DNA from: an uncultured archaeon
GTDB lineage: Archaea; Aenigmatarchaeota; Aenigmatarchaeia; QMZP01
Direction: 5' to 3'
Length of the DNA: 53,640 nucleotides
Assembly: GCA_964484305.1 (NCBI GenBank)
Contig: CAZAEI010000005.1
Location: 1-53,640, forward strand
Shown here: in pieces, positions 36,391-53,640 of the stretch
Layout: every line of letters begins with the position of its first letter
Numbering within the stretch: position 1 is the stretch's first letter
Made by a program: the position numbers and the translations under genes
Notes under the pieces: model-generated
What the model was told of the DNA's origin: nothing
Database searches by the model: none
The model's input: only the letters and a program-made list of their open reading frames with translations

Positions 36391-36606
36391 CTACTTTGCG
36401 TTCTTGATGACTTCCCTGAGGCTGGCTACTTCCTTCCTGAGCTCCCTCATCTCGTTGCTGAGCTGGAGCTCCTCCTCATCGAACTTCCTTGTTATCACCC
36501 TGAGTTGCCTGAACTCGAACTCCAGGATGACGAGGTAGACAACCACCACCGTGGAGAATATGACGAGCAACTCCAGTATGGGTACGTCAATGCCGAATAT
36601 GTACAT
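36391..36606 (-). CDS. 71-aa bitopic membrane protein with a C-terminal coiled coil
   Basis: Hydrophobic LELLVIFSTVVVVYLVIL followed by heptads; its ATG directly follows the upstream TAG. Confidence 0.7.
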   Translation of the reverse strand: MYIFGIDVPILELLVIFSTVVVVYLVILEFEFRQLRVITRKFDEEELQLSNEMRELRKEVASLREVIKNAK

Positions 36607-39966: not shown

Positions 39967-40031
39967 ATTAATATTTAATGGTATGGTAAATATATAAAAC
40001 TTATACAAAACTTGTCTAATTTCCAGGATAT

Positions 40032-43000
40032 TTATCTTAATTCCCTCAGCTTCCTCTTGAGCTCCCCTATACCCTCCGGCCTCTTCCTCCTCCAGAACCT
40101 GAACAGCAGGTAGCCTATTGCTGCCAGGGCCACGGCCAGGAATACCATCCAGCTCAATGAAACAATGGTCCTTTCAGGGCAGTTCACATAGAAGTCTGAG
40201 TGGTCTGTAAGTATGGTCTGGAAGTCCTTCTTGAACCTGCTATAGACCGAATACTTCCCGTCAGAGAAGCTCCTCAAGTCCACCGAAAAGGGCAGCCTGA
40301 CCTCTTCCCATGGCCAGACATCCTTCATCTCCACAAGCTGGGCATTCATGGTCTTGAGGTGGGGACTGGGTCCCACCACCTCAATCTCCAGGTAGGAGCC
40401 TGTCTCCCTTTCAGAGGGGATTACGAACACCGTTATGTTGGCATAATCGCTGCACCCGTGCATCACCGCACCCATGGCAGTCAGAAGTATTGGCGGGACC
40501 TCTGTATAGACTATCGTGAGCTCCCTCTTCCGGCCAGCCTCCATCCTTCCCAGGAATATCTCTGTGGTAGAGTTGTCATATTCACTGTAGTTTAGCAGGT
40601 TCTCCCCCTCCATCACATATACAACGTTGCCGGTCCCTGACTTGAACAGGAGAGACACCCCGCTATAGACCTCGAGTGCAAAGTTCTCCACAGTGGTATT
40701 GACCACGAATCTTATCTCCCTCTCACCCGATTCCAGGACATTCACAACCCTCTTGGTTTCCAAGACAGGCGGTGTTACAGCCTCCAAGACATAGGTCTTG
40801 GTCTCACCAGACTTCAGCCTGAACGTGATGTCCACATGGGTTGTTTCACCCTCCTTGAGAGCCAGGGATTCCCTGTCTCCCCCCTCCCGAATGACATGGG
40901 CGCTCAGGGTGTCAGGAAAGACCTCCAGCCTCATTAAGTGCTCCACAGAGACACTGTTTGGATTATGAACCGTCAGGCCCTTTGTCCATCTTACAGGGAC
41001 GCCCACACGCACCCCCTCTACTTGCCATCCCCCATCCACGACCTCAAGGTCCTGAAGAATCCCCTCCCTCCTGACAGGGATGTACATATCCTCAAATATG
41101 TATTTATCCTCATAGTAGTTGTAGCCAAACACCCTTGTTATAAGGAAGCTGGTTCCCACAGGAACCGTGGTTTTGTAGCTGATCTCTATCTTGTCCCCAT
41201 TGAACAGGTTCAGGCTCTCCTCAAGCAGCCCGCCTGATGTAATCTTGGTTATAAGGTATTCCCTGTGCCTTCTGCCATTCACCAAGGTCATGCCGTTATC
41301 GGTCATCTTGTAGTCATTTCCCGGGTTCCACTCAATCCATTTCCCCGAAGAGTTTTCATATATCCTGAATGAGAGGGATGAGATGTCAAGGCTCCCGTAC
41401 TCGGGTATGTAAATAACGGCCTTGATATCCTTTACCCCCTTGTTCCCTGTATCAATTATATTATATCTTGCCAGAACACGGACGAGGTTATCTGCTATAA
41501 AGTAGCCCTCTCCCATCTCCCTTGCTATGTCAGCATACATGGCGGGTTCAACAGGCCCTCCGCCAGGGCCACCCGGTTCAGGCTCTCCACCAACCCCCGG
41601 AATGACCACATCCTGGCATACATTCTTGGTCACAGGCGTGCCCGAGAGCGTGACCAGTGTGGATGTCTGGCAGAACTGATATGTATGTGTGCTGGCATGG
41701 GAGCCCCCTGCCACGTCATACTCAAGCCTTATATCCTCATTCTGCTGGAGGCCGTGGCCCAGAAGAGAAGTTAAATTGTTTATGCTTACATTCACAAAAC
41801 CATCGTTCAGGGTGGTGGCTGCCTGGGTCATTATGGAGACCTGGGTGGTTATCTCTGTCTGTCCAGATGCGTTTATATAGAACACCCTGACATCAGATGG
41901 GGCCCAGTTGTTGCTTGTACCCCCGGCTGACTGATGTGGTATGACAGAGCCTATACTAACAGAACCGACTGAGAGGCCTGAATGCCCGATGTGCCTGGCC
42001 AGGTCCTGTACCGACAGGCCCGTTCCGCTCTCGGTGCTGTACCCCACAACTACGCTCTTGTCCACCCATGCATCTATCTCATAGAGCACAGGCAGGCTTA
42101 TGGTAGCCTGGCTCATGCTTGAATAATATGACGAACCCCAGACTACCTCCCAGTCCCAGGACGTGCTGTAATATCCTCCCTTGTCCTGCATTCCCGGAAG
42201 GCCTGTGTCATACCAGTCCGTATATTTGGTTTCGCCTGGGTTGAAGGGATATATCTCCTCACTTGAGGATATGACCGGAGAGCCCTGACCTATCTGATAC
42301 AGCCCCCATCCGTGTATCCTGTAGTCCAGTCCCAGTGCCATGTTCCTGATGAAACCCCTCACTATCCATGTATCCATGGTGAGCATATCCACACCCACCC
42401 TCACCGGGCCGCGGGAGAACCTGTCAACAAAGCTTATCCCAGTGGGGGTGGATGTTCCTGTACTTGTGTGGGTGGCCTGGCTCGTGGTCTCCTGGTCAAG
42501 GTCCACATACATGAAGTTTTCATTAAAGTTCACATCGGGTGTGATGTATCCCCGGAAGTATATCTCCACATCCACGCCGGCTGACAGGGGACCAGTCCAG
42601 GAGAGCATATCAAAGAAGCCGTCCCCGTCAGAATCCCAGGAATCACTATTCCCTGAGGTGGGGGATACCCCATAGAGGTGAATGGAATCATTGAGACCAA
42701 GCGTGTTCCTGGCGAACCTCAGGTAGACAGAGACCCCGTTCAGGTCATGCGTGGAGTTTATGGTCAGATCGAAGCTGAATGAATTGGTTCCGCCCGAATA
42801 GATGTCCCTCCCCCCGGCATCGTTTGCATACTCCATGCCAAGGTATATCACCGGCATCACACCACCGGTTATATTATAGCTTATGTTGCTCTCGCTGCTT
42901 GTTGTGTTGACATAGAGCCTGGTCCTGTCACCGGGGCTTGGTGATGCCGCCACCCCCCTGTAGGTAAGGGTTGACTGAAGGTTTGTGTTGGCGGTTCCAG

Positions 43001-43229
43001 AGAGCTCAAGAACGAGATACTGGAGAACATCCAGCTGGTTCGGGACCTCGACCTCCACGTATCCAAGGCACACCACCGGGCTTACCAGGGAGCCGTCTGT
43101 GTTGTAATCTGCACCGGAAACCTCTGTTATATAGGATGTCGGAACATCCGCCCTGGCGACAGCCGGATATAAAAGCAGGGAAACCAAACTTATCACTAGG
43201 ACGGACTTCCAATGGGCTGGCCAAACCAT
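40032..43229 (-). CDS. Large C-terminally anchored surface protein, paralog 2
   Basis: Collinear motifs shared with paralog 1 (VPNxxDVLQY, RGPxRxGVD, WxVRGxIRNM, WEVxW, LPVLY, TPPVLE); C-terminal TM. Confidence 0.75.
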   Translation of the reverse strand: MVWPAHWKSVLVISLVSLLLYPAVARADVPTSYITEVSGADYNTDGSLVSPVVCLGYVEVEVPNQLDVLQYLVLELSGTANTNLQSTLTYRGVAASPSPGDRTRLYVNTTSSESNISYNITGGVMPVIYLGMEYANDAGGRDIYSGGTNSFSFDLTINSTHDLNGVSVYLRFARNTLGLNDSIHLYGVSPTSGNSDSWDSDGDGFFDMLSWTGPLSAGVDVEIYFRGYITPDVNFNENFMYVDLDQETTSQATHTSTGTSTPTGISFVDRFSRGPVRVGVDMLTMDTWIVRGFIRNMALGLDYRIHGWGLYQIGQGSPVISSSEEIYPFNPGETKYTDWYDTGLPGMQDKGGYYSTSWDWEVVWGSSYYSSMSQATISLPVLYEIDAWVDKSVVVGYSTESGTGLSVQDLARHIGHSGLSVGSVSIGSVIPHQSAGGTSNNWAPSDVRVFYINASGQTEITTQVSIMTQAATTLNDGFVNVSINNLTSLLGHGLQQNEDIRLEYDVAGGSHASTHTYQFCQTSTLVTLSGTPVTKNVCQDVVIPGVGGEPEPGGPGGGPVEPAMYADIAREMGEGYFIADNLVRVLARYNIIDTGNKGVKDIKAVIYIPEYGSLDISSLSFRIYENSSGKWIEWNPGNDYKMTDNGMTLVNGRRHREYLITKITSGGLLEESLNLFNGDKIEISYKTTVPVGTSFLITRVFGYNYYEDKYIFEDMYIPVRREGILQDLEVVDGGWQVEGVRVGVPVRWTKGLTVHNPNSVSVEHLMRLEVFPDTLSAHVIREGGDRESLALKEGETTHVDITFRLKSGETKTYVLEAVTPPVLETKRVVNVLESGEREIRFVVNTTVENFALEVYSGVSLLFKSGTGNVVYVMEGENLLNYSEYDNSTTEIFLGRMEAGRKRELTIVYTEVPPILLTAMGAVMHGCSDYANITVFVIPSERETGSYLEIEVVGPSPHLKTMNAQLVEMKDVWPWEEVRLPFSVDLRSFSDGKYSVYSRFKKDFQTILTDHSDFYVNCPERTIVSLSWMVFLAVALAAIGYLLFRFWRRKRPEGIGELKRKLRELR

Positions 43230-43397
43230 GTATAATAATTATCCTGAATAATAAATAAAGCAGACCTATCAATACTTTACACGCCAATTTCATAGTATAG
43301 GATTCTAACGGAATATCGGAAAGATGCTATCCATAGACTTATATAACAAGATATGTAAGCCTAAATTGATAAAGAATATACGATAAGGCATGGAAAA

Positions 43398-44747
43398 ATG
43401 ACTGAAATCCCTGTATGCAAAATTGAAGTAAAGGGAAAATCAGAGCAAATCACAATAAAGAAAGGTGCTGTTAATCTCAAAAACAACAATATTCTTCTCT
43501 TAAGGTCTTCACAAGAAAACATCTCTTGGCTGGCTAAAGTGTCTTCGCATGGTTATTCTAATTACATTCGTTTGACCTCAAATCTAAAACAAAGACCTAC
43601 TGATATTGAGGTTATTAAAATAGCTAAAGTAGGCGAAAGACCTCCCCTTGGGCCGCTTTCTAGAAACCAAGTGGATATATTGAACTTTATTAATGATAAT
43701 TGTACATGCATAGAAAGACCTCAAGGAAATGTTAGCATATACAAGCCACCCAAAGGACCCAGCATAACAATAAAAAGAATAATAAACCTGGACGAAGATT
43801 TAGCATGGTCAATAGGATTTTACCTCGCCGAAGGTCCTAAGGTCAGTTATGGTGTTGGAATAACCAATCACGAACTTTATCTTTTAAAACACTTTCAAGA
43901 GTCTATAGAAAAGAATTTTGATATTCAAAATAAAGAGTGGTTTGTTTATATCCATTCTCGTAATAAAGATAGTTCTAAAAAATTTAAAAGCAGGATTGTG
44001 CGCATCTTCCAAACAAATAAAATTAGTGATGTCAAGGCCAGATTAGCAACTAAAGATACTATTGAATTAAAAATTAACAATACCTTATTTGCCATTATTT
44101 TTAACCAATTTGTTTCAAAAGCAATAGAATTAATATTAGAAGATACATCTCTTGCTTTGGCGTTTTTAAAAGGCTATGAAATTGGCGATGGTTGTATTCT
44201 TCAACGTAATAGCTGCTATTTATATGGTATATGTATAACAACTAAAAACAACAGCAACAAAGAAATTTTAGTAAAAACATTGCAAAAATTGTATAATAAA
44301 AAACCAAGAATAAGAAGTAATAAAGGCTGTTATGAGATTACATGTACAGGAATAAATTTAATGACAGAATTTATTTTGGATGAACATTTTTCTTCATCAC
44401 CAAAACAGTGGAAAAAAATAATAAATTCTTATCTTAAGAAACAATATACAAGATCCCACATTAGATATTGGTTGGCATTAAAAAATAAAAAATTGCTTAC
44501 AAGAGAAATGGCACAAATTGCTGGTAGATCATATTGGTCGGTTCTAGATGCTATGAATAAAGATGCAAAATTAGGATTGATAAAAACTGAAAAGAGAAGG
44601 TTTCCTAACAAAGCGGGTCTCCACAATATTTATTCCCTCACAAACAAGGGGGACAAGCTATTGAGTTTAATAGGAGGTGTTGATGAAAAAACCAATTCGA
44701 GTAGCCTTGATGGGAGCTGGGGGAAGAGACAGGCGCTGGCCCTCTAA
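43398..44747 (+). CDS. Free-standing two-motif LAGLIDADG endonuclease with a C-terminal winged HTH
   Basis: LAWSIGFYLAEG and LAFLKGYEIGDG motifs; C-terminal TREMAQIAGRSYWSVLDAM...IYSLTNKG. Strongly AT-rich; overlaps the next gene by 65 nt. Confidence 0.8.
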   Translation: MTEIPVCKIEVKGKSEQITIKKGAVNLKNNNILLLRSSQENISWLAKVSSHGYSNYIRLTSNLKQRPTDIEVIKIAKVGERPPLGPLSRNQVDILNFINDNCTCIERPQGNVSIYKPPKGPSITIKRIINLDEDLAWSIGFYLAEGPKVSYGVGITNHELYLLKHFQESIEKNFDIQNKEWFVYIHSRNKDSSKKFKSRIVRIFQTNKISDVKARLATKDTIELKINNTLFAIIFNQFVSKAIELILEDTSLALAFLKGYEIGDGCILQRNSCYLYGICITTKNNSNKEILVKTLQKLYNKKPRIRSNKGCYEITCTGINLMTEFILDEHFSSSPKQWKKIINSYLKKQYTRSHIRYWLALKNKKLLTREMAQIAGRSYWSVLDAMNKDAKLGLIKTEKRRFPNKAGLHNIYSLTNKGDKLLSLIGGVDEKTNSSSLDGSWGKRQALAL

Positions 44748-46016
44748 TTCCACAACTTCCTTGTATACTTTAAGGACAACCCAACCTACAAAGTCGTATG
44801 CTTTACGGCTACCCAGATACCTGGAATAGAAAACAGAACATTCCCAAAAGAGTTTGCTGACAAGCTTTATACCAGAGGTATACCTATCTATCCCGAGGAA
44901 AGACTACCAGAACTTATCAGGAAATATAAAATCGATATGGTGGTCCTGGCCTACAGCGACCTCTCCCACGCAGACGTGATGCACAGGGCAAGCCTGGTTA
45001 ATTCCCTGGGTCCTGACTTTGTCCTTATGGGAACCAGGAACACCATGCTGAAATCCCGCAGGCCTGTGATAGCCGTGACTGCCGTGAGGACGGGCTGCGG
45101 CAAGTCCCAGACCACCAGGAAGCTCGCCATGATTCTCAAAACCCTTGGAAAGAGGGCCGCCGTGGTCAGGCACCCCATGCCCTATGGAGACCTCAGGAAG
45201 CAGGCCTGCCAGAGGTATGAGCGCTTCAAGGACCTTGACATACACAGGTGCACAATCGAGGAGAGGGAGGAATACGAACCACTTATAGAGGACTCTGACA
45301 TACTCTATGCCGGGGTTGACTATGAAAGAATTCTCAGGGAGGCTGAGGGGGAGGCCGATGTCATAATCTGGGACGGCGGGAACAACGACACCCCCTTCTT
45401 CAGACCAGACCTCCACATCGTCATAGTAGACCCCCACAGGGCCTTCCATGAGATATCATACCATCCCGGCGAGACCAACTTCAGAATGGCCGACGTGATC
45501 ATAATCAACAAGGAAAGGACCGCACCAGAGGGCAGCGTGAGGATAATCAGGGAGCACATCAGGGCATACAACCCCAAGGCCACGGTTGTGGATGCGAACT
45601 CTGTGATAACAGTGAACGACCCCGCCCTTATCCAGGGCAGGCGCGTCCTGGTTGTTGAGGACGGCCCCACCCTGACCCACGGCGGTATGTCCTATGGCGC
45701 CGGGACAATTGCGGCCAGGCATTTCTCTGCCAGACCAGTGGACCCCAGGCCCTATGCCACGGACTCCATAAAGAGGGTCTTCATGAAATACCCGCACCTC
45801 GGCAATGTCCTGCCGGCCATGGGATACTCTGAGAAGCAGGTGAGGGAGCTCGGGCGCACCATAAACAGGGTCAAATGCGACGCCGTCATATCCGGCACCC
45901 CAATAGACCTGAGAAGGATAATCCATGTCAGGAAACCCATAGTCCGGATACATTACAACCTCGAGGAGACCAGCAGGCCCAACCTCACGGACATAGTTAA
46001 GGACTTCCTCAAATAA
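44683..46016 (+). CDS. P-loop GTPase, COG2403 / cyclic 2,3-diphosphoglycerate synthase-like; predicted spliced, join(44683..44730,44748..46016), 438 aa
   Basis: GGAGGTG RBS and ATG at 44683. Exon 1 MKKPIRVALMGAGGRD joined to FHNFLVYFKDNPTYKVVCFTATQIPGI restores the family motif GRDFHNF. Also AVRTGCGKSQT, WDGGNND, EDGPT. Confidence 0.85.
44731..44747 (+). other. Candidate 17-nt bulge-helix-bulge (BHB) mRNA intron
   Basis: AGGCGCTGGCCCTCTAA. Forms a 3-nt bulge (ACA), a 4-bp helix (AGAG/CUCU) and a 3-nt bulge (AAU). Cleavage after the second nt of each bulge excises exactly these 17 nt. Confidence 0.82.
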
Positions 46017-46043
46017 GCCTTTCAAAAAAAGGCTTAAGCCAAA
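46014..46043. repeat. Intergenic palindromic repeat, copy C (minimal)
   Basis: TAAGCCTTT-CAAAA-AAAGGCTTAAGCCAAA; starts at the GTPase stop codon, between convergent genes. Confidence 0.7.
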
Positions 46044-46074
46044 AGGAGATTCACTTCGTTCGCTTCCACGACAA

Positions 46075-46719
46075 TCAGAACAGCTTATCCACATTCTGTA
46101 CCTCTTCCAGGGGGGCCACCATTATGACGGTGTCCCCCTGCTGAATCCTTTCCTTGGGAGAGGCCTTGAGGAACCCCCCGTCCCTGAATATGGCCGCTAT
46201 GGTGAACTTCTCCCCATCAAATTCCTTTACACTCCTGTTTGCTATCCTGGACTTGCTGTCCACCAGGCGCTCGAATACCTCGGCCTTTTCACCCGCCACC
46301 AGGTTCACCAGCCTCTTTCCGGGTTTCTCTATAACCCTCTTGAAGGCGAGGATTGCAGAAACTGTGGTGTTTATGCTGGCTGTTATTCCGAGCTTGGAGA
46401 AAATCGGGTCATTGGACGAATCCACGACCCTTGAGACTATGCTCGGGACCTTGAAGTCCTTGGCTATCTCGCACACAAGCAGATTGGTCTTGTCATCCCC
46501 TGTCATTGCAATGAGGGCATCGCACTTCTTGATGCTCCCGTCCTTGAGAACCTTTCTCTCTGTCCCGTCCCCGTGCAGGACGAGTGCATCCAGGTTCTCG
46601 CCCAGGTATTCAGCCCTCTTGTCATTCTTCTCCACCACCACGACATCGTGCTTCTCCTTGACAAGCAGGCCGGCGAGCCCGTTCCCCAGGTGCCCCCCAC
46701 CCACAATGATTACCTTCAT
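46075..46719 (-). CDS. trkA: TrkA-family potassium uptake regulatory protein (RCK N and C domains)
   Basis: MKVIIVGGGHLG, VLHGDGT, MTGDDKTNL, IQQGDTV. AAGGTG RBS precedes 46719. Confidence 0.9.
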   Translation of the reverse strand: MKVIIVGGGHLGNGLAGLLVKEKHDVVVVEKNDKRAEYLGENLDALVLHGDGTERKVLKDGSIKKCDALIAMTGDDKTNLLVCEIAKDFKVPSIVSRVVDSSNDPIFSKLGITASINTTVSAILAFKRVIEKPGKRLVNLVAGEKAEVFERLVDSKSRIANRSVKEFDGEKFTIAAIFRDGGFLKASPKERIQQGDTVIMVAPLEEVQNVDKLF

Positions 46720-46845
46720 ATCAACACCTTCCTTCCAGACCTGATTATACAAACCCAACCCATCTCCTGAGATGACAGCGAGCACATCGGGAAGTTCTGG
46801 TAATTATGATTTATTAGTGGGCCCTGTAAATATAAAACTGATACA

Positions 46846-48039
46846 ATGATGTGGCTCAAAGACATCAGGACCCGTGCCGAACTCGGCAGGCCGCCCGTTC
46901 TCTCAGGCAGGAGCGCCAAGCTCGGCAAGGTGAGCTTCGATGACCTTGTCTTTGTCCCTGCCCAGCTATCTAGGGTCCCTGTGGATTACTTCAGGGAGAG
47001 CATCTCCTCCGAGACCATAATAGGCAGGACCAGCAGGAAACCACTCAAGCTCTCCATGCCAATCGTGTTCGCAGGCATGAGCTTCGGTGCCCTCTCCAGG
47101 GAGGCCAAGATTGCGATAGCCAGGGCCAGCACAATCCTCGGTACCTGTACAAACACAGGAGAGGGCGGCATGCTCCCGGATGAGAGGAAACACGCCAGGC
47201 TCCTTATCGCTCAGTACTCAACAGGCCGCTTTGGTGTGGACGATGCCTACCTCAGGGCAGCTGACGCAATTGAGATAAAAATCGGCCAGGGGGCCAAGCC
47301 CGGCCAGGGGGGGCTCCTCCCCAAGGAGAAGGTGACCATGGAAATCATGAAGGTCAGGAAGCTCCCCAGACAGATGGATGTCCACTCTCCTGCCTCCCAC
47401 CCCGACATCAGGACCCCCTCAGACCTGAAAAAGAAGGTGGACATGCTCAGAAAGAAGTCAGGGGGCAAGCCTGTAATAATAAAGCTTGGGGCCGGCCATG
47501 TCAGTGACGATGTCAGGATTGCCCTGAAGGCAAACCCGGATATCATATCCCTGGACGGCATGTCCGGCGGGACAGGTGCCGCCCCTGAGATAATGCTCGA
47601 TGACTTTGGGGTTCCCATCCTCCCTGCAATAGTCCAGGCCCGCACGCTCATGGACAGGCTCAGGGCCAGGCAGGACCTGATAGTGGGAGGGGGATTCAGC
47701 AAGGGCGCGGACATTGCCAAGGCCCTGGCCCTCGGGGCAGACGCTGTCTTCATGGGCTTCCCCCTCATGATAGCCATGGGCTGCATCTACTGCAGAAAGT
47801 GCTACAAGGGAGAGTGCCCGTACGGCATAGCCACCCAGGACCCGAAGAAGAGGAAAAACCTCAAGATTGATGAAGCCACCCAGAGCATAGTCAACTTTGT
47901 TAGGGCCTGCTCCGAGGAGGTCAAGATGGCAGCCGGAGCTACGGGCCACGACAGCGTCCACAAGATGACCCCGGACGACATGAGGGCTCTTGACTTCAAT
48001 ATGGCCAGGATATCCGGAGTCAAACTGGTAGGGGACTAA
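46846..48039 (+). CDS. FMN-binding glutamate synthase family protein (stand-alone GltB FMN domain)
   Basis: GMSFGALS, NTGEGG, QYSTGRFG, EIKIGQGAKPGQGGLL, DGMSGGTGAAP, C-x2-C-x2-C-x4-CPYGIATQDP. Confidence 0.9.
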   Translation: MMWLKDIRTRAELGRPPVLSGRSAKLGKVSFDDLVFVPAQLSRVPVDYFRESISSETIIGRTSRKPLKLSMPIVFAGMSFGALSREAKIAIARASTILGTCTNTGEGGMLPDERKHARLLIAQYSTGRFGVDDAYLRAADAIEIKIGQGAKPGQGGLLPKEKVTMEIMKVRKLPRQMDVHSPASHPDIRTPSDLKKKVDMLRKKSGGKPVIIKLGAGHVSDDVRIALKANPDIISLDGMSGGTGAAPEIMLDDFGVPILPAIVQARTLMDRLRARQDLIVGGGFSKGADIAKALALGADAVFMGFPLMIAMGCIYCRKCYKGECPYGIATQDPKKRKNLKIDEATQSIVNFVRACSEEVKMAAGATGHDSVHKMTPDDMRALDFNMARISGVKLVGD

Positions 48040-48109
48040 CCACCTCCCCACAAGTATCCTTCGGAAACTGAAAGAACATATTCCACTTATTTGACGCATA
48101 TGCAAGGTG

Positions 48110-48598
48110 TTACCAGTACCAGACAGTCACCTTAAGCAGCTTCTGGTCCATATCACTTATACCAAACCTGGTGACCCTGGCGTTCTGTATACCGCTGGGA
48201 AGACTTCCACACTCGAGCAGGTTAGTCTCACCCCCGGAGCCCAGGGACTTGTTTACCTCCAGCGCTATCCAATGCATTTGAGAATCGACATTGAGAAGTC
48301 GAATCACATCATTCATGCTGCTCTGGCACAACGTTTCCAGGTCGCTTATCTTATCCTCATCGAGCTCGGGCCACTCATTCGCAAGGCCCAGCGCCAAGGG
48401 AGGGCTTCCTGACCAGTCCCCCTGGCTCCTGACCAACACCTCTGAAATCTGCCAGGCCTTGCTCTCAAGGATATTGATGTGGTGGTCACTGGAATAGAGA
48501 AAGACCGTACTGTTGAGATAGTTTATGGTGTACATGATTATTGCGAGAAAGAACAGGGTCGCTACAATGAACTCGAAAACAAGCTGGCCTTTCAACAC
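48110..48598 (-). CDS. Archaeal type IV pilin-like protein (class III signal peptide)
   Basis: KG/QLVFEFIVATLFFLAII prepilin cleavage motif with +5 Glu. Start at GTG 48598 or TTG 48595 after GGAGG. Confidence 0.75.
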   Translation of the reverse strand: MLKGQLVFEFIVATLFFLAIIMYTINYLNSTVFLYSSDHHINILESKAWQISEVLVRSQGDWSGSPPLALGLANEWPELDEDKISDLETLCQSSMNDVIRLLNVDSQMHWIALEVNKSLGSGGETNLLECGSLPSGIQNARVTRFGISDMDQKLLKVTVWYW

Positions 48599-48697
48599 CC
48601 TCCCTCCGTCTTGCTCCACCCTACTCAAGACGGTATCTGATCTTGCCCGGCTGTGACCCCTCATAATAATATATACTTTCCACGGCATATAATTAAT

Positions 48698-49762
48698 ATG
48701 CGCGCTCCCCTCATTATACTGCCCATAATACTCACACTCCTCGTCTCAGGCTGCACCATACCAGGCATGCCTAGCGGCTTCTGCATACCAGGCCTGACCT
48801 GCGGCGCCACAGTGGAGGAGACCCACGACGTCATTATCATTGAGAGCCTCCAGGCCCTCCCCAACAACATCCCGCCCGAGGGGACCATAAAGCTCGTGGC
48901 CATTGTCAGCAACGTGGCCGATGTCAAAGCCGAGATAAGGGACGTCGATGTCTATGTCCAGCTTTATGATTACTGCTCAGGCCTTTTTAAGGAACCTACC
49001 AAACAAACCCAGCAAATCAAACTCTTAAGGGGCGAGAAAAAACAGATAGAGTGGACCCTTCAGGCCCTCCCAAAGACCTGGGTCCCTGTCAAGACCGAGT
49101 GCACACTCAAGATCCTGGCCAAATACCCCTATGCCACCAAGAGCATAACCACCCTTCACCTTATAGACTACGCCGAGATGCAGAGGAGGATAAACGAGGG
49201 GACCTACAAGGAGATAGGCTCATACACATCTGTCGGCTACGGACCGATAAAACCCTACATAACAGTCGAGGGCACCCAGCCCATACCGGTTGAAAACAAT
49301 AAGATAAATACAGTCCTCTCTCTCCAGATAAAGAACCGCGGCAAGGGCTTCCTCTCAACCCCCTATTGCAAGGATGAGGCAGAATGCAAGAAATACAGGT
49401 GTCCCTCAACCGCAAAAGGCAATGACGACGCAGGACCTATAATAAGAAGGGAACAGGTTAAAGTCACGTCCGTTGCCAAGGACCAAATCTCCCAAGATAT
49501 TTCAGGGATATTGCATAAGGACGGTGCTAAAAATGACGCACTCGATGATTTCTTCACTAGCACATGCGCAGCCGGGGATTATAAAGATCAGGCCTATGTA
49601 AAGCTCATAAAAAAGGAATCCACCCCCATGCCCTGCACTGTCACAAGAACACTCAGCGGAAATGTCCCTGTAGAGTCCACAAAGACACTCCAGGCTGAGA
49701 TAAGTAATTACTGGTACGAGTTCAGGAAGGAAATCAAGGTCACTGTGGAGCCAAAGTTCTGA
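48698..49762 (+). CDS. Predicted lipoprotein, paralog 1 (Cys-rich)
   Basis: Hydrophobic leader ending LLVSGC; beta-rich body with several Cys pairs. Confidence 0.7.
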   Translation: MRAPLIILPIILTLLVSGCTIPGMPSGFCIPGLTCGATVEETHDVIIIESLQALPNNIPPEGTIKLVAIVSNVADVKAEIRDVDVYVQLYDYCSGLFKEPTKQTQQIKLLRGEKKQIEWTLQALPKTWVPVKTECTLKILAKYPYATKSITTLHLIDYAEMQRRINEGTYKEIGSYTSVGYGPIKPYITVEGTQPIPVENNKINTVLSLQIKNRGKGFLSTPYCKDEAECKKYRCPSTAKGNDDAGPIIRREQVKVTSVAKDQISQDISGILHKDGAKNDALDDFFTSTCAAGDYKDQAYVKLIKKESTPMPCTVTRTLSGNVPVESTKTLQAEISNYWYEFRKEIKVTVEPKF

Positions 49763-49822
49763 CGCCCGGGGAAAACAACCGCAAACTTATAAATTAGTTA
49801 AGGGCCAAATATATAACAGGTA

Positions 49823-50776
49823 ATGGTTCTGATGGCGGAAAGAAATCCCCCTGGTGCGAAGCCCCTGATGTTTCTCCTAATCCTTTCTGCAGTCCTGATT
49901 GTATCCGGCTGCGTTACTGACGGGGGCATCTCCTACGGCAAGGGTGTTGCCATAACCGATTTCAATTCTGACTTCAGCTCTGTGCAGTCAGGTGATGATG
50001 TAACCCTTCGGGTCAGGGTCCAGAACCAGGGAGAGATGGACGCCGAGAATGTCAAGGCCCAGATAATAGGCATAGACCTGGACGAATGGGGCACGGGCTA
50101 CGGCTGGAGCGATGAAAAGGACCTCGGAACCCTCATTGCAGCAGACCCTACAACAGGCACCGAGGGCCAGACCAAGCAGTCTGAGTGGTACCTTGAAGCC
50201 CCGGACTATCCCAAGAACATAAAATTCACGCACACCCCTGAGGTAAGGGTTATTTACGATTACAAGACCACGGCATTCAAGCCCATAACGCTTGTGGATG
50301 AGGATGAGCTCAGAAGGATAAGGGACGCGGGCAGGACCATCCCAGGCGGCGCCACAGAATCCTCTGCCGGCCCGCTCTCTGTTCAGATAAAGACAGGGAA
50401 CTTCATCAAGACCCAGGACTATGACGACCCCTTCCCGCTCAACATAATCATAACCAATGATTTAACGGGCAGTGTTATCGAGGGCTCTGGTTACTACGGC
50501 GGCCGGATATCTGAGGACTATAAATCCCCTGTCAAGGTAACGATAACCCTTCCCCCTGGCATGAACCTTGAGTCAAGCGAGGGCTGCAGCACCTCAGGCG
50601 AATGGGTGAACCTGTTCAAGGGCAGGGACCACATGCTGACCTGCGAGATAAGTATTGACGACCCGCCTGAGTACAAGGTTGAGAAATTCATCCAGGTCGA
50701 GCTCGAGTACACCTATTCTGTCGACGCCTCCACCACAATCGAGGTCATAGGGACAGAGGAAGGCTGGGGCTGGTAA
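49823..50776 (+). CDS. Predicted lipoprotein, paralog 2
   Basis: Leader ending LIVSGC; shares the LRVRVQNQG, YDYKT, GPLSV and LEYTY pattern with its neighbours. Confidence 0.7.
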   Translation: MVLMAERNPPGAKPLMFLLILSAVLIVSGCVTDGGISYGKGVAITDFNSDFSSVQSGDDVTLRVRVQNQGEMDAENVKAQIIGIDLDEWGTGYGWSDEKDLGTLIAADPTTGTEGQTKQSEWYLEAPDYPKNIKFTHTPEVRVIYDYKTTAFKPITLVDEDELRRIRDAGRTIPGGATESSAGPLSVQIKTGNFIKTQDYDDPFPLNIIITNDLTGSVIEGSGYYGGRISEDYKSPVKVTITLPPGMNLESSEGCSTSGEWVNLFKGRDHMLTCEISIDDPPEYKVEKFIQVELEYTYSVDASTTIEVIGTEEGWGW

Positions 50777-50825
50777 GCCCTATTCTTAACCCAATATTAA
50801 TAGCTTAACGAACAAATATAAACCG

Positions 50826-51767
50826 ATGAGCAGACATGCTTTGCCTGGCCTGGTTCTCCTCCTTGCAGCAGTCGTAGTTGCATCAGGATGCACCAATCCC
50901 AGCCTCCAGACCGGGGACGGTGTCGCCATACAGGAGTTCACCCCAGGCTTCTCCGAGGTCTATCCAGGGGAGCCCGTAACATTCTTACTCAAGTTCAAGA
51001 ACATCGGCTCTGTCGAGGCCACGGGGGTCTTTGCCGAGCTCCTGGGCCTGGATGAGGACTGGGCAGCCTCCAGCAGCGGACTTGGCACAATACTCAATAA
51101 TGAGATGCTCCCCCAGGAGGCCAAGTGCCAGTACCCTAACATGGGAAACCATTTCTCCATGAAGCCCCCAGACCTGTTCTACGGGACCGAGGGGGAGACA
51201 TCCACGTGCACATGGAAGTACAAGGCCCCGCCCGTCCCCGGAGGCTTTGGGGTCACCTATCCCATCACAGCCAGGCTGTTCTACAGCTACAGGACAGCCA
51301 TCGTGAAGTCCTTTACCATCCTCTCCACAGGGGAGCTCACGAGATACAACCAGCAGGGCAAGACAGTCCCCTCAAGCACGGTGAGCTCCACACGGTCACC
51401 CATAACCATAACAGCCGAGGCCATGGACCCCATAAGGTTCTGGGAGGGCAGCATAACCTTCCCCATTGCCATAACCTTCTCCAACACGGGCGGGGGCATG
51501 GTCTGCCTCAAGGACCACTGCAAGAAGACCAATGGACAGGAGTGGAACCAGCTCGGGTTCTCAATCAAGGAGATAAGCAAGGGGGTCAAGGTCGACTGCT
51601 TCGGCCGCAATGAGATTGAGGTCTGGCCAAACAGGGACAACACCATAGTGTGCGATGTCACGGTTTCAGACACCTCCCAGATTACAGGCCACGAGGAGAG
51701 GATAATCAGCATATCAGCAGACTACAGCTACTTCACAGATGCCGAGGCCTCGATAACCGTACTCTAG
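50826..51767 (+). CDS. Predicted lipoprotein, paralog 3
   Basis: Leader ending VVASGC; shares the FKNIG, YSYRT, SPITI and ADYSY pattern. Confidence 0.7.
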   Translation: MSRHALPGLVLLLAAVVVASGCTNPSLQTGDGVAIQEFTPGFSEVYPGEPVTFLLKFKNIGSVEATGVFAELLGLDEDWAASSSGLGTILNNEMLPQEAKCQYPNMGNHFSMKPPDLFYGTEGETSTCTWKYKAPPVPGGFGVTYPITARLFYSYRTAIVKSFTILSTGELTRYNQQGKTVPSSTVSSTRSPITITAEAMDPIRFWEGSITFPIAITFSNTGGGMVCLKDHCKKTNGQEWNQLGFSIKEISKGVKVDCFGRNEIEVWPNRDNTIVCDVTVSDTSQITGHEERIISISADYSYFTDAEASITVL

Positions 51768-53023
51768 AAATCCATTATGCTTCTCTGCTTCCCAGCCGCG
51801 GGCTCCCCTGTGAGCTTCTCTGGCTCCCCCCTGAACAGGGGCCTTCCATACTCGCCATCAAAACCTGGCTGCATCCTGACCTGGCCGTTCCTCACCCTTA
51901 CCACAGCCTCTGCTATCCTGGGGTCCACGACCCTGGCCATCTCACCCTGCCCTGCCTCCATCAGGACCCTGTACTCAGAGCCAAAGGCCTCTATCAGCCT
52001 GTTGTACTCTGCCCAGACCTTCCTCGAGGACACGAGACCTGTCCCGAGAATGGAGGCTATTATCTCCGATAACGGTATAAGGCTCCTGAAGGGCCTCGCC
52101 CCCTCGGGCCTGAAGCCCTCCTCCCTGTCAGCCAGCTCCTCCACCCTATGGAGCACCCCTATGGTGAGGGGCCTCCTGCACACAGGGCAGACATTCCCTG
52201 CCCTGATGCTCTCCCCGGGCTCCATGCATACCCCACAGGCCCTGTGGCCGTCATAGTGGTACTTGCCCTCCTCGGGGAAGAATTCCAGCGTCTCTGTGAG
52301 GCCCTCCCTTGTCCTTATGGCCTTGATCATATTGCTATAATCCAACTCCTTCAGGTCAAAGACAGTGGCCTCCCTTCCCAGCCTCCACGGCCACGGCGAA
52401 TGGGAATCAGAGAACGAGACCAGGGAATACCTGTCAAGGGCGGACAGCCTCCAGTTCATTTTGGGATCGCTCGACAGCCCGGTCTCCAGTGCATGTATGT
52501 GCCTGGCCTGGTCCCCAAAACACTCCTCCACTGAGTTGAAACCAGATGAGGCACCCATCGCCCCAAAATGTGGAGTCCAGATGTGTGCAGGTATAACCTC
52601 TATTTTATCATCAATGTTTCTCATAGCTTCTACAAGTTCAATGCAGCTGAATCCGAATATTGGTCTCCCGTCATAATCAACCCTACCTTTTGTTTTCAGC
52701 CAATCTGTTATCTTTTCAGCAGTTTCACAATCTGGAGCAAGTATCACGTTATGAACCTTTCGCCCCCTTCCTCCTTGAGTGTATATAAGGGAGATTTCAG
52801 TAGAGAAAAGGAATTTCATTCCATTATATTCATAAATACCAGAAGACACCTCTGTGAGCCTGTTCTTGAGTTCAGAAAACCAATGTGGGTGGGTGAAGTC
52901 CCCTGTCCCCAGAAGGTTCACGCCCTTTACCTTGGCATACTTGGAAAGTTCCTCCATGTTCATGAGCTTTGACGTTGCCCTGCTGTAGTGGCTGTGTATG
53001 TGCAGGTCAGCTATAATTCGCAT
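51764..53023 (-). CDS. Endonuclease Q (TIGR00375-like PHP-domain DNA repair endonuclease)
   Basis: DLHIHSHYSRATS, GTGDFTHP, DGRP, IPAHIWTP, ETGLSSDP, SDSHS, GKYHYDGHRAC, CPVC, C-terminal PIP box QRSIMDF. Confidence 0.88.
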   Translation of the reverse strand: MRIIADLHIHSHYSRATSKLMNMEELSKYAKVKGVNLLGTGDFTHPHWFSELKNRLTEVSSGIYEYNGMKFLFSTEISLIYTQGGRGRKVHNVILAPDCETAEKITDWLKTKGRVDYDGRPIFGFSCIELVEAMRNIDDKIEVIPAHIWTPHFGAMGASSGFNSVEECFGDQARHIHALETGLSSDPKMNWRLSALDRYSLVSFSDSHSPWPWRLGREATVFDLKELDYSNMIKAIRTREGLTETLEFFPEEGKYHYDGHRACGVCMEPGESIRAGNVCPVCRRPLTIGVLHRVEELADREEGFRPEGARPFRSLIPLSEIIASILGTGLVSSRKVWAEYNRLIEAFGSEYRVLMEAGQGEMARVVDPRIAEAVVRVRNGQVRMQPGFDGEYGRPLFRGEPEKLTGEPAAGKQRSIMDF

Positions 53024-53640
53024 GAATTCACCTTGTATTCAGCATATCTTCTTATATTGCCAGCATAATATGGTAGGATTGTTTTAACAATATCCCTTCT
53101 TCTGTAGTTGCAGAGGAGATTCCGACACGACCCAACAGCACGCCCTGTCGCTCTTGCCAAATCAAGCGAGTTGAATGAGCACTTCTCCTTCTCAATAGAT
53201 TTCATCTTAGAAATATAAATATCAGAACATTCCTTTTTTCGATATTGAATAACCTTAAAACTATTTATGAGCCCTCTCAGCTTTCTCCTTTTTTCAAGAT
53301 GCCTTAAGTTGAATGAACCATTAATTCTTTTTATCTGATATGAGCCATTAATCTGAATTACTTTTTGAATCCTGTCTCTTCCTCTAACAGAACCATATTT
53401 TTTTCGTTGATAAACAGCTGGCTCAACACCTAGGTCTTCAAACAATCTTGTTATTCCTTCGACGAGATGGAATGTTTTGTGATTCTCCTCGATAGCAAAA
53501 TTCATTTTTATGTGCTTTGAAGCTAGATTAACGCTTCCTTCGTCATCAAAAAGCTGGGATAAGAACTCCCATTTTTTGTCTTTGGTTAGATTGAAAATGA
53601 AATCAGGTATCTTTTGGTTGTTTACTACCTTTCTTCCGGG
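53011..53640 (-). CDS. Second LAGLIDADG endonuclease with a C-terminal HTH; 5' end outside the window
   Basis: The frame is open from the window edge: PGRKVVNNQKIPDFIFNLTKDKKWEFLSQLFDDEGSV (LAGLIDADG motif), ending in SLDLARATGRAVGSCRNLL. AT-rich; overlaps the endoQ RBS and start. Confidence 0.72.
   Translation of the reverse strand, partial: PGRKVVNNQKIPDFIFNLTKDKKWEFLSQLFDDEGSVNLASKHIKMNFAIEENHKTFHLVEGITRLFEDLGVEPAVYQRKKYGSVRGRDRIQKVIQINGSYQIKRINGSFNLRHLEKRRKLRGLINSFKVIQYRKKECSDIYISKMKSIEKEKCSFNSLDLARATGRAVGSCRNLLCNYRRRDIVKTILPYYAGNIRRYAEYKVNSCEL

What the first reader, a model, noticed from the sequence alone, without database searches (positions are those of the whole stretch)
52540..53640. 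Second LAGLIDADG-HTH gene with the same overlap architecture at endoQ, but no intron
Seen: another AT-rich LAGLIDADG ORF with a C-terminal HTH embeds the endoQ RBS (AAGGTGA) and overlaps its start. The endoQ segment at about 52560-52890 is AT-richer than the rest of the gene and reads TPHFGAMGASSGF where the family more typically has TPWFSxFGSxSGF (from recall). Inference: a recurring class of free-standing archaeal homing endonucleases that park upstream of conserved genes and convert their 5' part to a resistant allele, by substitution here and by intron at 44731.
Basis: partly seen in the sequence, partly recalled or inferred. Interest (0 to 1): 0.7.

Follow-up and report, generated by a model that had tools for sequence, protein, structure and literature searches.

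The report
Mobile endonuclease gene docked at endoQ
The window ends inside a selfish "homing endonuclease" gene that has inserted exactly in front of the start codon of the DNA-repair gene endoQ. A 332-base stretch inside endoQ has also been replaced by foreign DNA, and close relatives in other metagenomes lack both changes.

Summary
Window 53011-53640 (-) is the C-terminal 209 codons of an AT-rich (GC 0.36) LAGLIDADG + winged-helix gene. Its last codons contain the endoQ Shine-Dalgarno sequence (AAGGTGA, 4 nt before the ATG), and it overlaps endoQ by 13 nt.

An exhaustive search found a family of about 390-aa free-standing proteins: N-terminal HTH, two LAGLIDADG motifs with the catalytic D and E kept, and a C-terminal winged helix. 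All 20 close relatives that have downstream sequence sit immediately 5' of endoQ, with the same Shine-Dalgarno/ATG geometry. More distant relatives sit the same way in front of nreA, rpl22 (between rps19 and rpl22), a prefoldin gene and others.

None of the 80 best endoQ loci from reference genomes carries the gene. Related strains in marine-sediment metagenomes (90-96% identical) have an empty site at the ATG and the canonical TPWFSIFGSK motif. The window reads TPHFGAMGAS inside a foreign tract (codons 49-159, GC3 0.30 against 0.74).

So this is a free-standing homing endonuclease with a mosaic target gene. Cleavage, the target site and resistance are untested. The tract is not contiguous with the endonuclease gene, and one related allele has the tract without that gene. 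The window's two LAGLIDADG genes are not demonstrably one family.

The parts
53011..53640 (-). C-terminal 209 codons plus TAG stop of a free-standing double-motif LAGLIDADG endonuclease gene. By comparison with relatives, about 185 codons lie beyond the window end.
   Evidence: Open frame. Aligns with residues about 183-388 of 385-410 aa relatives, E 3.6e-53 to 1e-33. GC 0.36 against 0.52 for the window. Logan contigs of independent runs continue about 2 kb past 53640.
53530..53574 (-). Second LAGLIDADG motif, KWEFLSQLFDDEGSV, with the catalytic acidic residue (E before G).
   Evidence: D213 and D214 of P0001 are invariant across 30 family members, G216 is nearly invariant, and the residue between them is E in most members and D in a few. 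This D/E pair arrangement is that of I-DmoI (own knowledge).
53029..53229 (-). C-terminal winged-helix (wHTH) DNA-binding region.
   Evidence: Aligns with P0001 residues 319-385, which fold as three helices plus a beta wing in an AlphaFold model (pLDDT 93.5) and match MarR- and TFE-type winged helices.
53028..53034 (-). Shine-Dalgarno sequence AAGGTGA for endoQ, embedded in the endonuclease codons ..YKV...
   Evidence: Sequence. The same GGTGA-N4-ATG geometry is conserved in the relatives' junctions..AAATATAGGGTGATAAAATGA.
53011..53023 (-). 13-nt overlap between the endonuclease stop and the endoQ start.
   Evidence: Most relatives overlap by 4 nt (ATGA). Here the native second codon CGA removes the TGA, so the frame runs on for three more codons to a TAG.
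51764..53023 (-). endoQ (endonuclease Q), 419 aa.
   Evidence: PfuEndoQ 5ZB8, E 1.1e-59 over residues 3-395. TIGR00375, E 2.6e-55.
52880..53023 (-). endoQ codons 1-48, native-type (host-like GC3 of about 0.7).
   Evidence: The segment is 90-98% identical to endonuclease-free alleles in runs X28 and X29, right up to the ATG.
52548..52879 (-). Foreign (imported) tract, endoQ codons 49-159.
   Evidence: GC3 0.30 against 0.74. Contigs of 90-96% identical relatives match on both sides and diverge exactly at 52547/52548 and 52879/52880, inside the conserved motifs SGFN and GDFTHPHW.
52547..52576 (-). Variant active-site-proximal motif TPHFGAMGAS (codons 150-159), at the 3' edge of the tract.
   Evidence: The endonuclease-free relative encodes TPWFSIFGSK at the same place. 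TPWFS/TPHFS predominates in endonuclease-free homologues and occurs in only one of the 13 endonuclease-linked alleles shown, window included.
51140..52430 (.). Segment with two co-existing haplotypes (about 7% apart) in the source population, abutting the tract.
   Evidence: Logan contig bubbles occur only here. The segments 41000-51140 and 52431-53640 (plus about 2 kb beyond) show a single haplotype. The minor haplotype shares variants with the X28 lineage.
43398..44747 (+). The other AT-rich LAGLIDADG + wHTH gene of the window. It has the same kind of docking but is not demonstrably the same family.
   Evidence: LAGLIDADG_3 E 2e-5. BLASTP against the fragment E 0.77 and hhalign probability 6.6%. 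Absent from X28 and X29 relatives: joints 43264->44930 and 43239->44710.

Best explanation
The window ends inside a free-standing homing-endonuclease gene (HEG). Its product is a monomeric, I-DmoI-like double-LAGLIDADG enzyme of about 390 aa, flanked by an N-terminal HTH and a C-terminal winged helix. It belongs to a subfamily whose genomic home is the position immediately 5' of the endoQ start codon.

The element is built to be harmless there. Its last codons (A-K/E-Y-K/R-V) encode the Shine-Dalgarno sequence for endoQ, 4 nt before the ATG, and its stop overlaps the ATG. endoQ therefore stays expressed, probably by co-transcription and translational coupling.

In this fairly GC-rich (0.52) archaeon, which looks DPANN-like, the gene is a recent import from an AT-rich donor. 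An internal 332-nt piece of endoQ (codons 49-159) was also replaced by AT-rich foreign sequence, with both junctions inside conserved motifs. This replacement changed TPWFSIFGSK to TPHFGAMGAS.

The most likely mechanism is intronless homing. The enzyme cuts endonuclease-free endoQ alleles. Double-strand-break repair from an endonuclease-carrying allele then copies the gene in front of the ATG and co-converts nearby coding sequence.

Shown here:
- LAGLIDADG fold and conserved catalytic residues in the family
- strict linkage of the subfamily to endoQ, with a conserved junction
- presence/absence polymorphism with a precise empty site
- the foreign tract and its borders

Inferred:
- nuclease activity
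- the cleavage site (candidates: the TPWFS region or the start-codon region)
- that the tract arose in the same event as the insertion
- that the tract confers resistance
For: Family and fold.
- 92 relatives were found, 11 of them at E<1e-30, mostly 385-410 aa. The fragment aligns with their C-terminal half.
- The AlphaFold model of P0001 has pLDDT 93.5. Its best PDB matches are the TliVMA intein endonuclease domain, I-Tsp061I, PI-SceI and I-DmoI, at E 1e-9 to 1e-5.
- The acidic residues of both motifs are invariant.

Linkage to endoQ.
- All 20 close relatives with downstream sequence have endoQ starting within about 20 nt of the endonuclease stop on either side, mostly as a 4-nt ATGA overlap.
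- The junction ..AAATATAGGGTGATAAAATGA is conserved. The window has the same GGTGA-N4-ATG geometry.

Mobility.
- None of the 80 best reference endoQ loci has the gene.
- Endonuclease and endoQ phylogenies disagree. The L092 endonuclease is 54-58% identical to those of L085 and L103, but its endoQ is only about 40% identical to theirs.
- Degenerate copies exist (L091, L097).
- The gene has GC 0.36 in a 0.52 genome.
- In marine-sediment runs X28 and X29, strains 90-96% identical in the flanks give no coverage of 53030-53640. Their sequence upstream of the start reads ..CCGGCATTAATAACC|ATGCGAATTATAGCTGACCT, against the window's ..AAGGTGAATTC|ATGCGAATTATAGCTGACCT.

Mosaic endoQ.
- GC3 is 0.30 in the tract against 0.74 outside, with a log-likelihood ratio of 31.6.
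- Relatives' contigs diverge at 52547/8 and 52879/80 and encode TPWFSIFGSK and HW|LRELRERLSD.
- The G in place of S after TP.F, as in the window, is seen in 8 of 12 endonuclease-linked alleles but in only a few endonuclease-free ones. L097 even reads FGAMG.

Against an assembly artefact.
- The region holds 100% of its sampled words in 14 or more independent salt-marsh runs.
- It lies on single Logan contigs with no differences.

The class more broadly.
- Distant relatives are docked in front of nreA, between rps19 and rpl22, and between eIF-6 and a prefoldin gene.
- Free-standing phage endonucleases are known to cleave hundreds of bp from their own gene and to co-convert flanking DNA (PMC2988022).
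Against: - The foreign tract is not contiguous with the endonuclease gene. 144 nt of native-type sequence (codons 1-48) lie between them, which a single continuous conversion tract does not predict.
- One related allele (run X24) carries the tract (52725-52879 at about 94% identity) joined to an endonuclease-free upstream region. Tract and endonuclease gene can therefore exist apart.
- At the protein level the tract is not phylogenetically discordant compared with other archaeal pairs.
- Most endonuclease-linked endoQ alleles form a divergent clade (EVNPAYGKYH instead of EFFPEEGKYHYD). Endonuclease and endoQ distances correlate moderately (Spearman 0.50). Much of the association is therefore long-term co-inheritance rather than frequent jumping.
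- No cleavage assay, target site or transcript evidence exists. No RNA runs could be listed.
- The N-terminal half of this particular copy is outside the window, so its intactness is unknown.
Confidence: 0.75

Rival explanations
1. Domesticated regulator or operon partner. The LAGLIDADG-HTH protein would no longer be a mobile nuclease. It would be a WhiA-like DNA-binding factor, or an EndoQ accessory protein, kept upstream of endoQ because it controls or assists it.
For: - The gene pair is strictly conserved with translational coupling in 20 loci whose endonucleases are only 37-60% identical.
- The protein has two extra DNA-binding modules (HTH and winged helix), as WhiA has an HTH.
- WhiA structures appear among the fold matches, at E about 1.6e-5.
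- Most copies are intact ORFs.
- Some loci add a conserved 71-aa wHTH ORF upstream.
Against: - The catalytic D and E are invariant or nearly so in the family, whereas WhiA has lost them (the WhiA point is own knowledge).
- There are no WhiA Pfam hits.
- The gene is absent from the 80 best reference endoQ loci, including the closest DPANN ones, and from 90-96% identical strains.
- Its composition is foreign in this genome.
- Relatives sit in front of functionally unrelated genes, including inside the universally conserved L2-S19-L22-S3 operon.
- The endonuclease and endoQ trees disagree for L092.
Confidence: 0.12
2. The AT-rich tract in endoQ is an independent homologous-recombination import from a co-resident AT-rich archaeon. 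It would be unrelated to the endonuclease, which inserted separately at the start codon.
For: - The tract and the endonuclease gene are separated by 144 nt of native sequence.
- A tract-positive, endonuclease-negative allele exists in run X24.
- Both junctions lie in conserved motifs where any recombination between divergent alleles would resolve.
- The adjacent 1.3 kb shows ongoing allele exchange in the population.
Against: - These are two foreign AT-rich segments of similar composition within 150 nt of each other, in a window whose other genes show no comparable anomaly apart from the 5' part of the gene downstream of the other LAGLIDADG gene.
- The tract brings in a motif variant (F-G..MG) typical of endonuclease-linked alleles.
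- The other LAGLIDADG gene of the window also has an AT-rich stretch in the 5' part of its downstream gene.
- Strains lacking the endonuclease gene in X28 and X29 also lack the tract.
Confidence: 0.3
3. Metagenome assembly chimera. AT-rich pieces of another organism's endoQ locus would have been stitched onto a GC-rich contig at conserved motifs.
For: The window ends inside the AT-rich gene. Composition switches at conserved motifs, where k-mers could be shared.
Against: - Three switches would be needed.
- The same sequence, with 97-100% of sampled words, is present in 10 or more independent runs.
- Single Logan contigs with zero differences span from 52275-52431 through to 53640 plus about 2 kb beyond, in four runs at depths of 12-41.
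- The other AT-rich LAGLIDADG gene lies fully inside a 29.6-kb contig.
Confidence: 0.02
4. Remnant of an intein or an intron-encoded endonuclease whose host context lies beyond the window end.
For: NCBIfam hits are to intein-containing proteins (RtcB, Tes). The top structural matches include intein endonuclease domains. The N-terminus of this copy is not visible.
Against: - Those hits cover only the LAGLIDADG core.
- Eleven or more full-length relatives are stand-alone ORFs of about 390 aa with their own start and an N-terminal HTH. They have no Hint domain hit, variable upstream neighbours and a stop at the endoQ ATG.
Confidence: 0.03

Closest known systems
I-DmoI / I-Tsp061I type monomeric archaeal LAGLIDADG homing endonucleases (rRNA-intron encoded)
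   Same: The core is a single-chain double-LAGLIDADG fold. Motif 1 ends in D-G and motif 2 in E/D-G, the D21/E117 arrangement of I-DmoI (own knowledge). Fold matches are at E 3e-8 to 1e-5.
   Different: The gene is not inside an intron. The protein is twice as long, with an added N-terminal HTH and a C-terminal winged helix. It is inserted in front of a protein-coding gene's start codon. Sequence identity to the solved enzymes is only 15-19%.
Free-standing phage homing endonucleases and 'intronless homing' (T4 SegF, SegG, MobE)
   Same: These are stand-alone endonuclease genes lodged between or next to conserved genes. They show presence/absence polymorphism between relatives and mosaic flanking genes from co-conversion. 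Their cleavage sites can lie hundreds of bp from the gene (PMC2988022; PMC2790892).
   Different: Those enzymes are GIY-YIG or HNH enzymes of phages. This one is a LAGLIDADG enzyme in cellular archaeal chromosomes, and none was found in viral contigs. It docks precisely at a start codon and donates the Shine-Dalgarno sequence. The converted tract here is discontinuous.
HO endonuclease (F-SceII) and PI-SceI
   Same: These are LAGLIDADG cores extended by extra DNA-binding regions, and HO is free-standing (own knowledge). PI-SceI is among the fold matches.
   Different: HO derives from an intein and retains Hint remnants and zinc fingers. No Hint or zinc-finger domain is detected here.
WhiA (bacterial LAGLIDADG-derived transcription factor)
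   Same: The architecture is a LAGLIDADG scaffold plus a C-terminal HTH. The fold match is at E about 1.6e-5.
   Different: WhiA lacks the catalytic acidic residues and is a conserved bacterial housekeeping regulator (own knowledge; see PMC3384342, listed). Here the acidic residues are conserved, the distribution is sporadic and there is no WhiA Pfam hit.

Membership tests
LAGLIDADG endonuclease superfamily (double-motif, monomeric) | Two LAGLIDADG helices, each ending in a catalytic acidic residue before G | tested here: met
   In the family, motif 1 reads ..ILGDG.. (D116 and G117 invariant). Motif 2 reads ..FDDEG.. (D213 and D214 invariant, E/D215, G216 at 90% or more). Only motif 2 (FLSQLFDDEGSV) is visible in the window.
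LAGLIDADG endonuclease superfamily (double-motif, monomeric) | Alpha-beta-beta-alpha-beta-beta-alpha fold, duplicated | tested here: met
   AlphaFold model of relative P0001, pLDDT 93.5. Foldseek matches I-Tsp061I, I-DmoI, PI-SceI and the TliVMA endonuclease domain at probability 1.00. This was tested on a 47%-identical relative, not on the truncated window copy.
LAGLIDADG endonuclease superfamily (double-motif, monomeric) | Curated Pfam threshold for a LAGLIDADG model | tested here: inconclusive
   The window fragment scores 18.1 bits against a cutoff of 22.5. Several full-length relatives pass, at 25-42 bits.
Homing endonuclease gene (mobile, free-standing) | Presence/absence polymorphism at one precise site among close relatives | tested here: met
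   Strains in X28 and X29 (90-96% identical in the flanks) lack the gene. Their sequence is identical to the window from the ATG on and unrelated upstream of it. The gene is also absent from 80 reference endoQ loci.
Homing endonuclease gene (mobile, free-standing) | Site-specific double-strand cleavage of the endonuclease-free allele | not testable with these tools
   This needs an in vitro or in vivo cleavage assay. Only conservation of the catalytic residues is shown.
Homing endonuclease gene (mobile, free-standing) | Co-conversion of flanking target sequence | tested here: inconclusive
   A 332-nt foreign tract in endoQ is shown. It is separated from the gene by 144 nt of native sequence and also occurs without the gene in X24.
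Homing endonuclease gene (mobile, free-standing) | Not embedded in an intron or intein | tested here: met
   Full-length relatives are separate ORFs with their own start codon and no Hint domain. For the window copy itself the N-terminus is outside the window.
WhiA-type LAGLIDADG-derived regulators | Loss of the catalytic acidic residues, with WhiA_N / HTH_WhiA domains | tested here: not met
   The acidic residues are conserved. There are no WhiA family hits in Pfam or NCBIfam.
Intein | Hint splicing blocks flanking the endonuclease domain, in frame with a host protein | tested here: not met
   No Hint or intein-splicing Pfam hit in 10 full-length relatives. NCBIfam hits to intein-containing proteins cover only the endonuclease part.
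Endonuclease Q (EndoQ) | Full-length similarity to a solved EndoQ, including the PHP motif DLHIHS and the zinc-finger cysteines | tested here: met
   5ZB8 PfuEndoQ, E 1.1e-59 over residues 3-395. TIGR00375 gives E 2.6e-55 but 188 bits against a curated cutoff of 326.6. The DLHIHS and CGVC...CPVC motifs are present.

The most novel reading that the evidence does not exclude
These proteins may form an undescribed, widespread clade of archaeal (apparently DPANN) free-standing LAGLIDADG endonucleases. Each subfamily would specialise on the start-codon position of one conserved gene (endoQ, nreA, rpl22, a prefoldin gene and others), and the element donates the ribosome-binding site. With two extra DNA-binding domains they could be living intermediates between selfish homing endonucleases and WhiA-like regulators: active nucleases that also set the expression of the gene they dock on. 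In doing so they would drive substitutions in conserved active-site-proximal motifs of their targets, such as TPWFS to TPHFG in EndoQ.
Probability: 0.2. Interest if true: 0.85.

Novelty: new variant of a known kind. Interest (0 to 1): 0.68.

Why it matters
Homing endonucleases of the LAGLIDADG type are textbook residents of introns and inteins. Free-standing homing with co-conversion is known mainly from GIY-YIG and HNH genes of T-even phages.

Here a LAGLIDADG family lives free in archaeal chromosomes. It docks exactly at the start codons of conserved genes and supplies their ribosome-binding site. It can be caught in natural populations in three states: empty site, tract only, and endonuclease gene plus tract.

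This provides several things:
- a natural system for following the homing cycle in uncultured archaea
- a source of new long-site nucleases with modular HTH extensions
- a warning for annotation and phylogenomics, because mosaic endoQ (and rpl22, nreA) alleles and small 'operon' genes in DPANN genomes may be footprints of these elements
- a concrete hypothesis that a selfish element reshapes a conserved motif of a DNA-repair enzyme

No paper in the searchable library mentions EndoQ together with LAGLIDADG. None of the papers that mention LAGLIDADG together with DPANN appears, from title and abstract, to describe such elements.

Tried and rejected
- The word-index protein search with the fragment found nothing. 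Only the exhaustive HMMER search found the family.
- The exact look-up of the window's EndoQ found no contig, so the contig could not be extended. Logan contigs run about 2 kb beyond 53640, but the tools do not return their sequence.
- PDB sequence search and PHROGs with the fragment were uninformative.
- I tested whether the tract is phylogenetically discordant at protein level. The tract-minus-rest identity difference for the window (-5.3) equals that of other archaeal pairs (-5.6). This test therefore gives no support, and the case rests on composition and on direct comparison with endonuclease-free alleles.
- A differential-conservation scan (endonuclease-linked against endonuclease-free alleles) pointed to several motifs: EFFPEEGKYHYD, PAHxWTPWFS, and residues 2-13. 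It therefore does not single out a target site.
- I could not show homology between the two LAGLIDADG genes of the window.
- The viral-contig scan found no relatives.
- No RNA runs could be listed.
- Low-coverage salt-marsh runs (X18-X22, X26) turned out to hold the same endonuclease-carrying strain, not an empty-site strain.
- The chimera hypothesis was rejected on read evidence.
- The taxon of the window could not be fixed. The evidence is limited to endoQ being closest to an Aenigmatarchaeota MAG (62%) and local synteny with Aenigmatarchaeota and other DPANN-like loci.
Full report
**What is at the coordinates**

On the minus strand, endoQ occupies 51764-53023 (419 aa). It matches the solved P. 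furiosus EndoQ over its whole length (5ZB8, E 1.1e-59) and TIGR00375 (E 2.6e-55).

Upstream of it, an ORF is open from the window edge (53640) to a TAG at 53011-53013, 209 codons. The minus strand reads ..GAA TAC AAG GTG AAT TCA TGC GAA TTA TAG. AAGGTGA (53028-53034) therefore lies 4 nt before the endoQ ATG (53021-53023), and the two genes overlap by 13 nt. The ORF has GC 0.36, against 0.52 for the window.

**Identity of the upstream ORF**

Pfam gives only a sub-threshold LAGLIDADG_3 hit (E 0.0033), and the indexed protein search found nothing. The exhaustive HMMER search found 92 relatives, 11 of them at E<1e-30. Nearly all are 385-410 aa, and the fragment aligns with their residues about 183-388. 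Roughly 185 codons of this gene therefore lie beyond the window.

The family has four parts:
- an N-terminal HTH-like region
- a first motif, ..ILGDG..
- a second motif, ..FLSQ.FDDEG.. (FLSQLFDDEGSV in the window)
- a C-terminal winged helix

The acidic residues that end each LAGLIDADG helix are invariant or nearly so. This is the D/E pair known from I-DmoI (own knowledge).

An AlphaFold model of relative P0001 (47% identical to the fragment) is confident, with pLDDT 93.5. Its best PDB matches are endonuclease domains of inteins, I-Tsp061I, PI-SceI and I-DmoI. WhiA matches further down the list.

Full-length relatives have their own start codon and no Hint or WhiA domains.

**The family's home is endoQ**

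I looked up or scanned for relatives in metagenome collections. Every close relative (37% or more identical to the fragment) that has sequence downstream has endoQ starting within about 20 nt of the endonuclease stop on either side. That is 20 of 20 loci, usually with a 4-nt ATGA overlap.

The junction is conserved at nucleotide level..GC.AAATATAGGGTGATAAAATGA. This is the peptide AKYRVIK* carrying GGTGA 4 nt before the ATG. The window has the same geometry. Because the native second codon of endoQ is CGA, there is no TGA, and the endonuclease frame runs on for three more codons to a TAG.

Upstream neighbours vary, and some loci carry a conserved 71-aa wHTH ORF.

**The wider class**

More distant relatives (24-30% identical) are docked in the same manner in front of other conserved genes:
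- nreA (L117, L118)
- rpl22, inside the otherwise universal L2-S19-L22-S3 operon (L111, L120, L121)
- a prefoldin gene, after eIF-6 (L132)
- a PIN gene
- an ABC ATPase gene
- a TPP enzyme gene

This is what one expects of selfish elements that target conserved genes. It is not what one expects of a dedicated EndoQ partner.

**Mobility**

- None of the 80 best endoQ loci from species-representative genomes carries the gene. These include the closest one, an Aenigmatarchaeota MAG at 62%.
- Endonuclease and endoQ divergences correlate only moderately (Spearman 0.50). There is clear discordance for L092, whose endonuclease is close to those of L085 and L103 but whose endoQ is of a very different clade.
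- Two copies are degenerate (L091, L097).
- No relative was found on viral contigs.

**Read evidence for mobility**

The window region is present with 97-100% of its sampled words in 10 or more salt-marsh metagenome runs. It lies on single Logan contigs that continue about 2 kb past the window end. This excludes a chimera.

Two marine-sediment runs (X28, X29) hold strains 90-96% identical in the flanking genes. They give no coverage of 53030-53640. Their contigs read ..CCGGCATTAATAACC|ATGCGAATTATAGCTGACCT, where the window reads ..AAGGTGAATTC|ATGCGAATTATAGCTGACCT. This is an empty site whose boundary is the endoQ start codon.

The other LAGLIDADG gene of the window (43398-44747) is likewise skipped in these strains.

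**The mosaic endoQ**

GC3 along endoQ is about 0.7 for codons 1-59, 0.30 for codons 60-161, and 0.74 afterwards. The log-likelihood ratio is 31.6, against at most 11.7 in shuffles. No equal-sized window in the 29 other genes falls below 0.42.

The endonuclease-free relatives fix the borders. Their contigs match the window up to 52547 and from 52880 onwards, and diverge in between. At the edges they encode TPWFSIFGSKSGFN and GDFTHPHW|LRELRERLSD, where the window has TPHFGAMGASSGFN and GDFTHPHW|FSELKNRLTE. The replaced tract is therefore 52548-52879 (codons 49-159), with both junctions inside conserved motifs.

TPWFS/TPHFS predominates among endonuclease-free homologues but occurs in only one of the 13 endonuclease-linked alleles shown, window included. 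Eight of the 12 endonuclease-linked alleles share the window's G after TP.F, and L097 even reads FGAMG.

**Limits of the co-conversion reading**

- The tract is not the 5' part of endoQ. Codons 1-48 are native-type right up to the ATG. A single continuous conversion tract from a cleavage site to the endonuclease gene is therefore not what is seen.
- In run X24 a contig carries the tract (52725-52879 at about 94% identity) joined to an endonuclease-free upstream region homologous to the X28/X29 empty site. An endonuclease contig at 97.5% identity is also present in that sample. Tract-only alleles thus exist. This fits either a homing cycle (loss of the gene, or tract first) or an unrelated import.
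- At the protein level the tract is not more discordant than in other archaeal pairs.
- A scan for positions that distinguish endonuclease-linked alleles points to several motifs, not one.
- Most endonuclease-linked endoQ alleles form a divergent clade, so long co-residence is common.

I therefore give about 0.75 to 'free-standing homing endonuclease recently inserted at endoQ, with a mosaic target'. I give about 0.5 to 'the tract came with the endonuclease', and about 0.3 to 'the tract makes the allele resistant'.

**Mechanism proposed**

The gene is read through with endoQ. Its 3' codons provide the Shine-Dalgarno sequence and its stop overlaps the start, so insertion costs the host little.

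The enzyme, with a LAGLIDADG core for cleavage and HTH and winged-helix modules for an extended site, cuts endonuclease-free alleles. Repair from an endonuclease-carrying allele then installs the gene at the ATG and converts nearby sequence.

Free-standing phage endonucleases are known to cut hundreds of bp from their own gene (PMC2988022). A site in the conserved TPWFS-coding region, about 450 nt from the insertion point, is therefore plausible. A site at the start-codon region that is split by the insertion is equally possible. Nuclease activity, site and immunity are all inferences.

**Comparison with known systems**

The system works like intronless homing of T4 Seg and Mob endonucleases. 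In fold it is an I-DmoI-type LAGLIDADG enzyme, extended by DNA-binding modules as in HO and PI-SceI. It resembles WhiA in architecture but fails WhiA's defining feature, the loss of the catalytic residues.

I found no paper that links EndoQ and LAGLIDADG. None of the papers that mention LAGLIDADG with DPANN appears, from title and abstract, to describe such elements. That library is incomplete.

I class this as a new variant of a known kind.

**Population observation**

The salt-marsh population is clonal over 41000-51140 and over 52431-53640 (plus about 2 kb beyond). It carries two haplotypes about 7% apart in 51140-52430, directly next to the tract. The minor one shares variants with the X28 lineage. 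This looks like recent allele exchange focused on this locus. Whether the endonuclease stimulates it is unknown.

Noticed in passing
window 51140-52430: In an otherwise clonal salt-marsh population, only this 1.3 kb (the endoQ 3' two-thirds plus the end of the convergent neighbour gene) shows two haplotypes about 7% apart. The minor one shares variants (for example 52216, 52229-52235) with the marine-sediment X28 lineage. This may be a recombination hot spot next to the endonuclease gene and the tract.
   Followed up: partly
window 43239-44937: The first LAGLIDADG gene (43398-44747) is also absent from X28 and X29 relatives. One joint runs 43264->44930 with 233 other letters between. Another runs 43239->44710 and keeps the AT-rich 5' part of the downstream gene at 88% identity. 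The three states seen at endoQ (empty, tract only, endonuclease gene plus tract) therefore seem to exist here too.
   Followed up: partly
window 44684-44760: The downstream gene starts MKKPIRVALMGAGGRD in one frame and continues FHNFLVYFKDNPTYK.. in another. The two parts are separated by 17 nt (AGGCGCTGGCCCTCTAA) that hold the endonuclease stop codon. The X28 endonuclease-free allele covering 44710-44857 shows no indel there. Whether this is an intron, a frameshift or a pseudogene was not resolved.
   Followed up: partly
L111 3413-4648, L120 3419-4645, L121 3398-4639: A distant subfamily of the same LAGLIDADG-HTH proteins is inserted between rps19 and rpl22 in the ribosomal protein operon (L2-S19-[endonuclease]-L22-S3). 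L111 has an extra 102-aa ORF before rpl22.
   Followed up: partly
L117 3251-4642, L118 3359-4675, L132 3416-4741: Other subfamilies are docked directly in front of the DNA-repair gene nreA (two loci), and between eIF-6 and a prefoldin gene, again with overlaps or gaps of about 4 nt.
   Followed up: partly
L083 725-940, L087 208-426, L092 1626-1886, L097 3525-3740: A conserved 71-aa winged-helix (HTH_24-like) ORF overlaps the start of the endonuclease gene in one subfamily (52-73% identical between loci). Its function is unknown, and it may be part of the mobile unit.
   Followed up: no
endoQ of L089, L097, L099, L100 (first 12 codons); L104 from its junction DNA: Several endonuclease-linked endoQ alleles read DLQIHS or DFQVHS instead of the PHP metal-binding motif DLHIHS found in the endonuclease-free alleles examined. 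This could be target-site escape near the insertion point or relaxed constraint.
   Followed up: no
L091 881-1837, L097 3710-4615: Degenerate endonuclease copies. L091 is 76% identical to P0001 but about 80 codons shorter. L097 lacks the N-terminal HTH region. This is consistent with decay in a homing cycle.
   Followed up: no
window 43302-43336: Other contigs in run X6 share only a stretch of about 32 nt just upstream of the first LAGLIDADG gene and then diverge on both sides. This may be a short repeated or conserved element.
   Followed up: no
window 27465-43229 and 49823-51767: There are three very large secreted or surface-type ORFs (2949, 1133 and 1065 aa). There are also two paralogous proteins of about 315 aa with lipobox-like N-termini, whose homologues sit next to endoQ in Aenigmatarchaeota and other DPANN-like loci. 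This is the only taxonomic hint for the window.
   Followed up: partly
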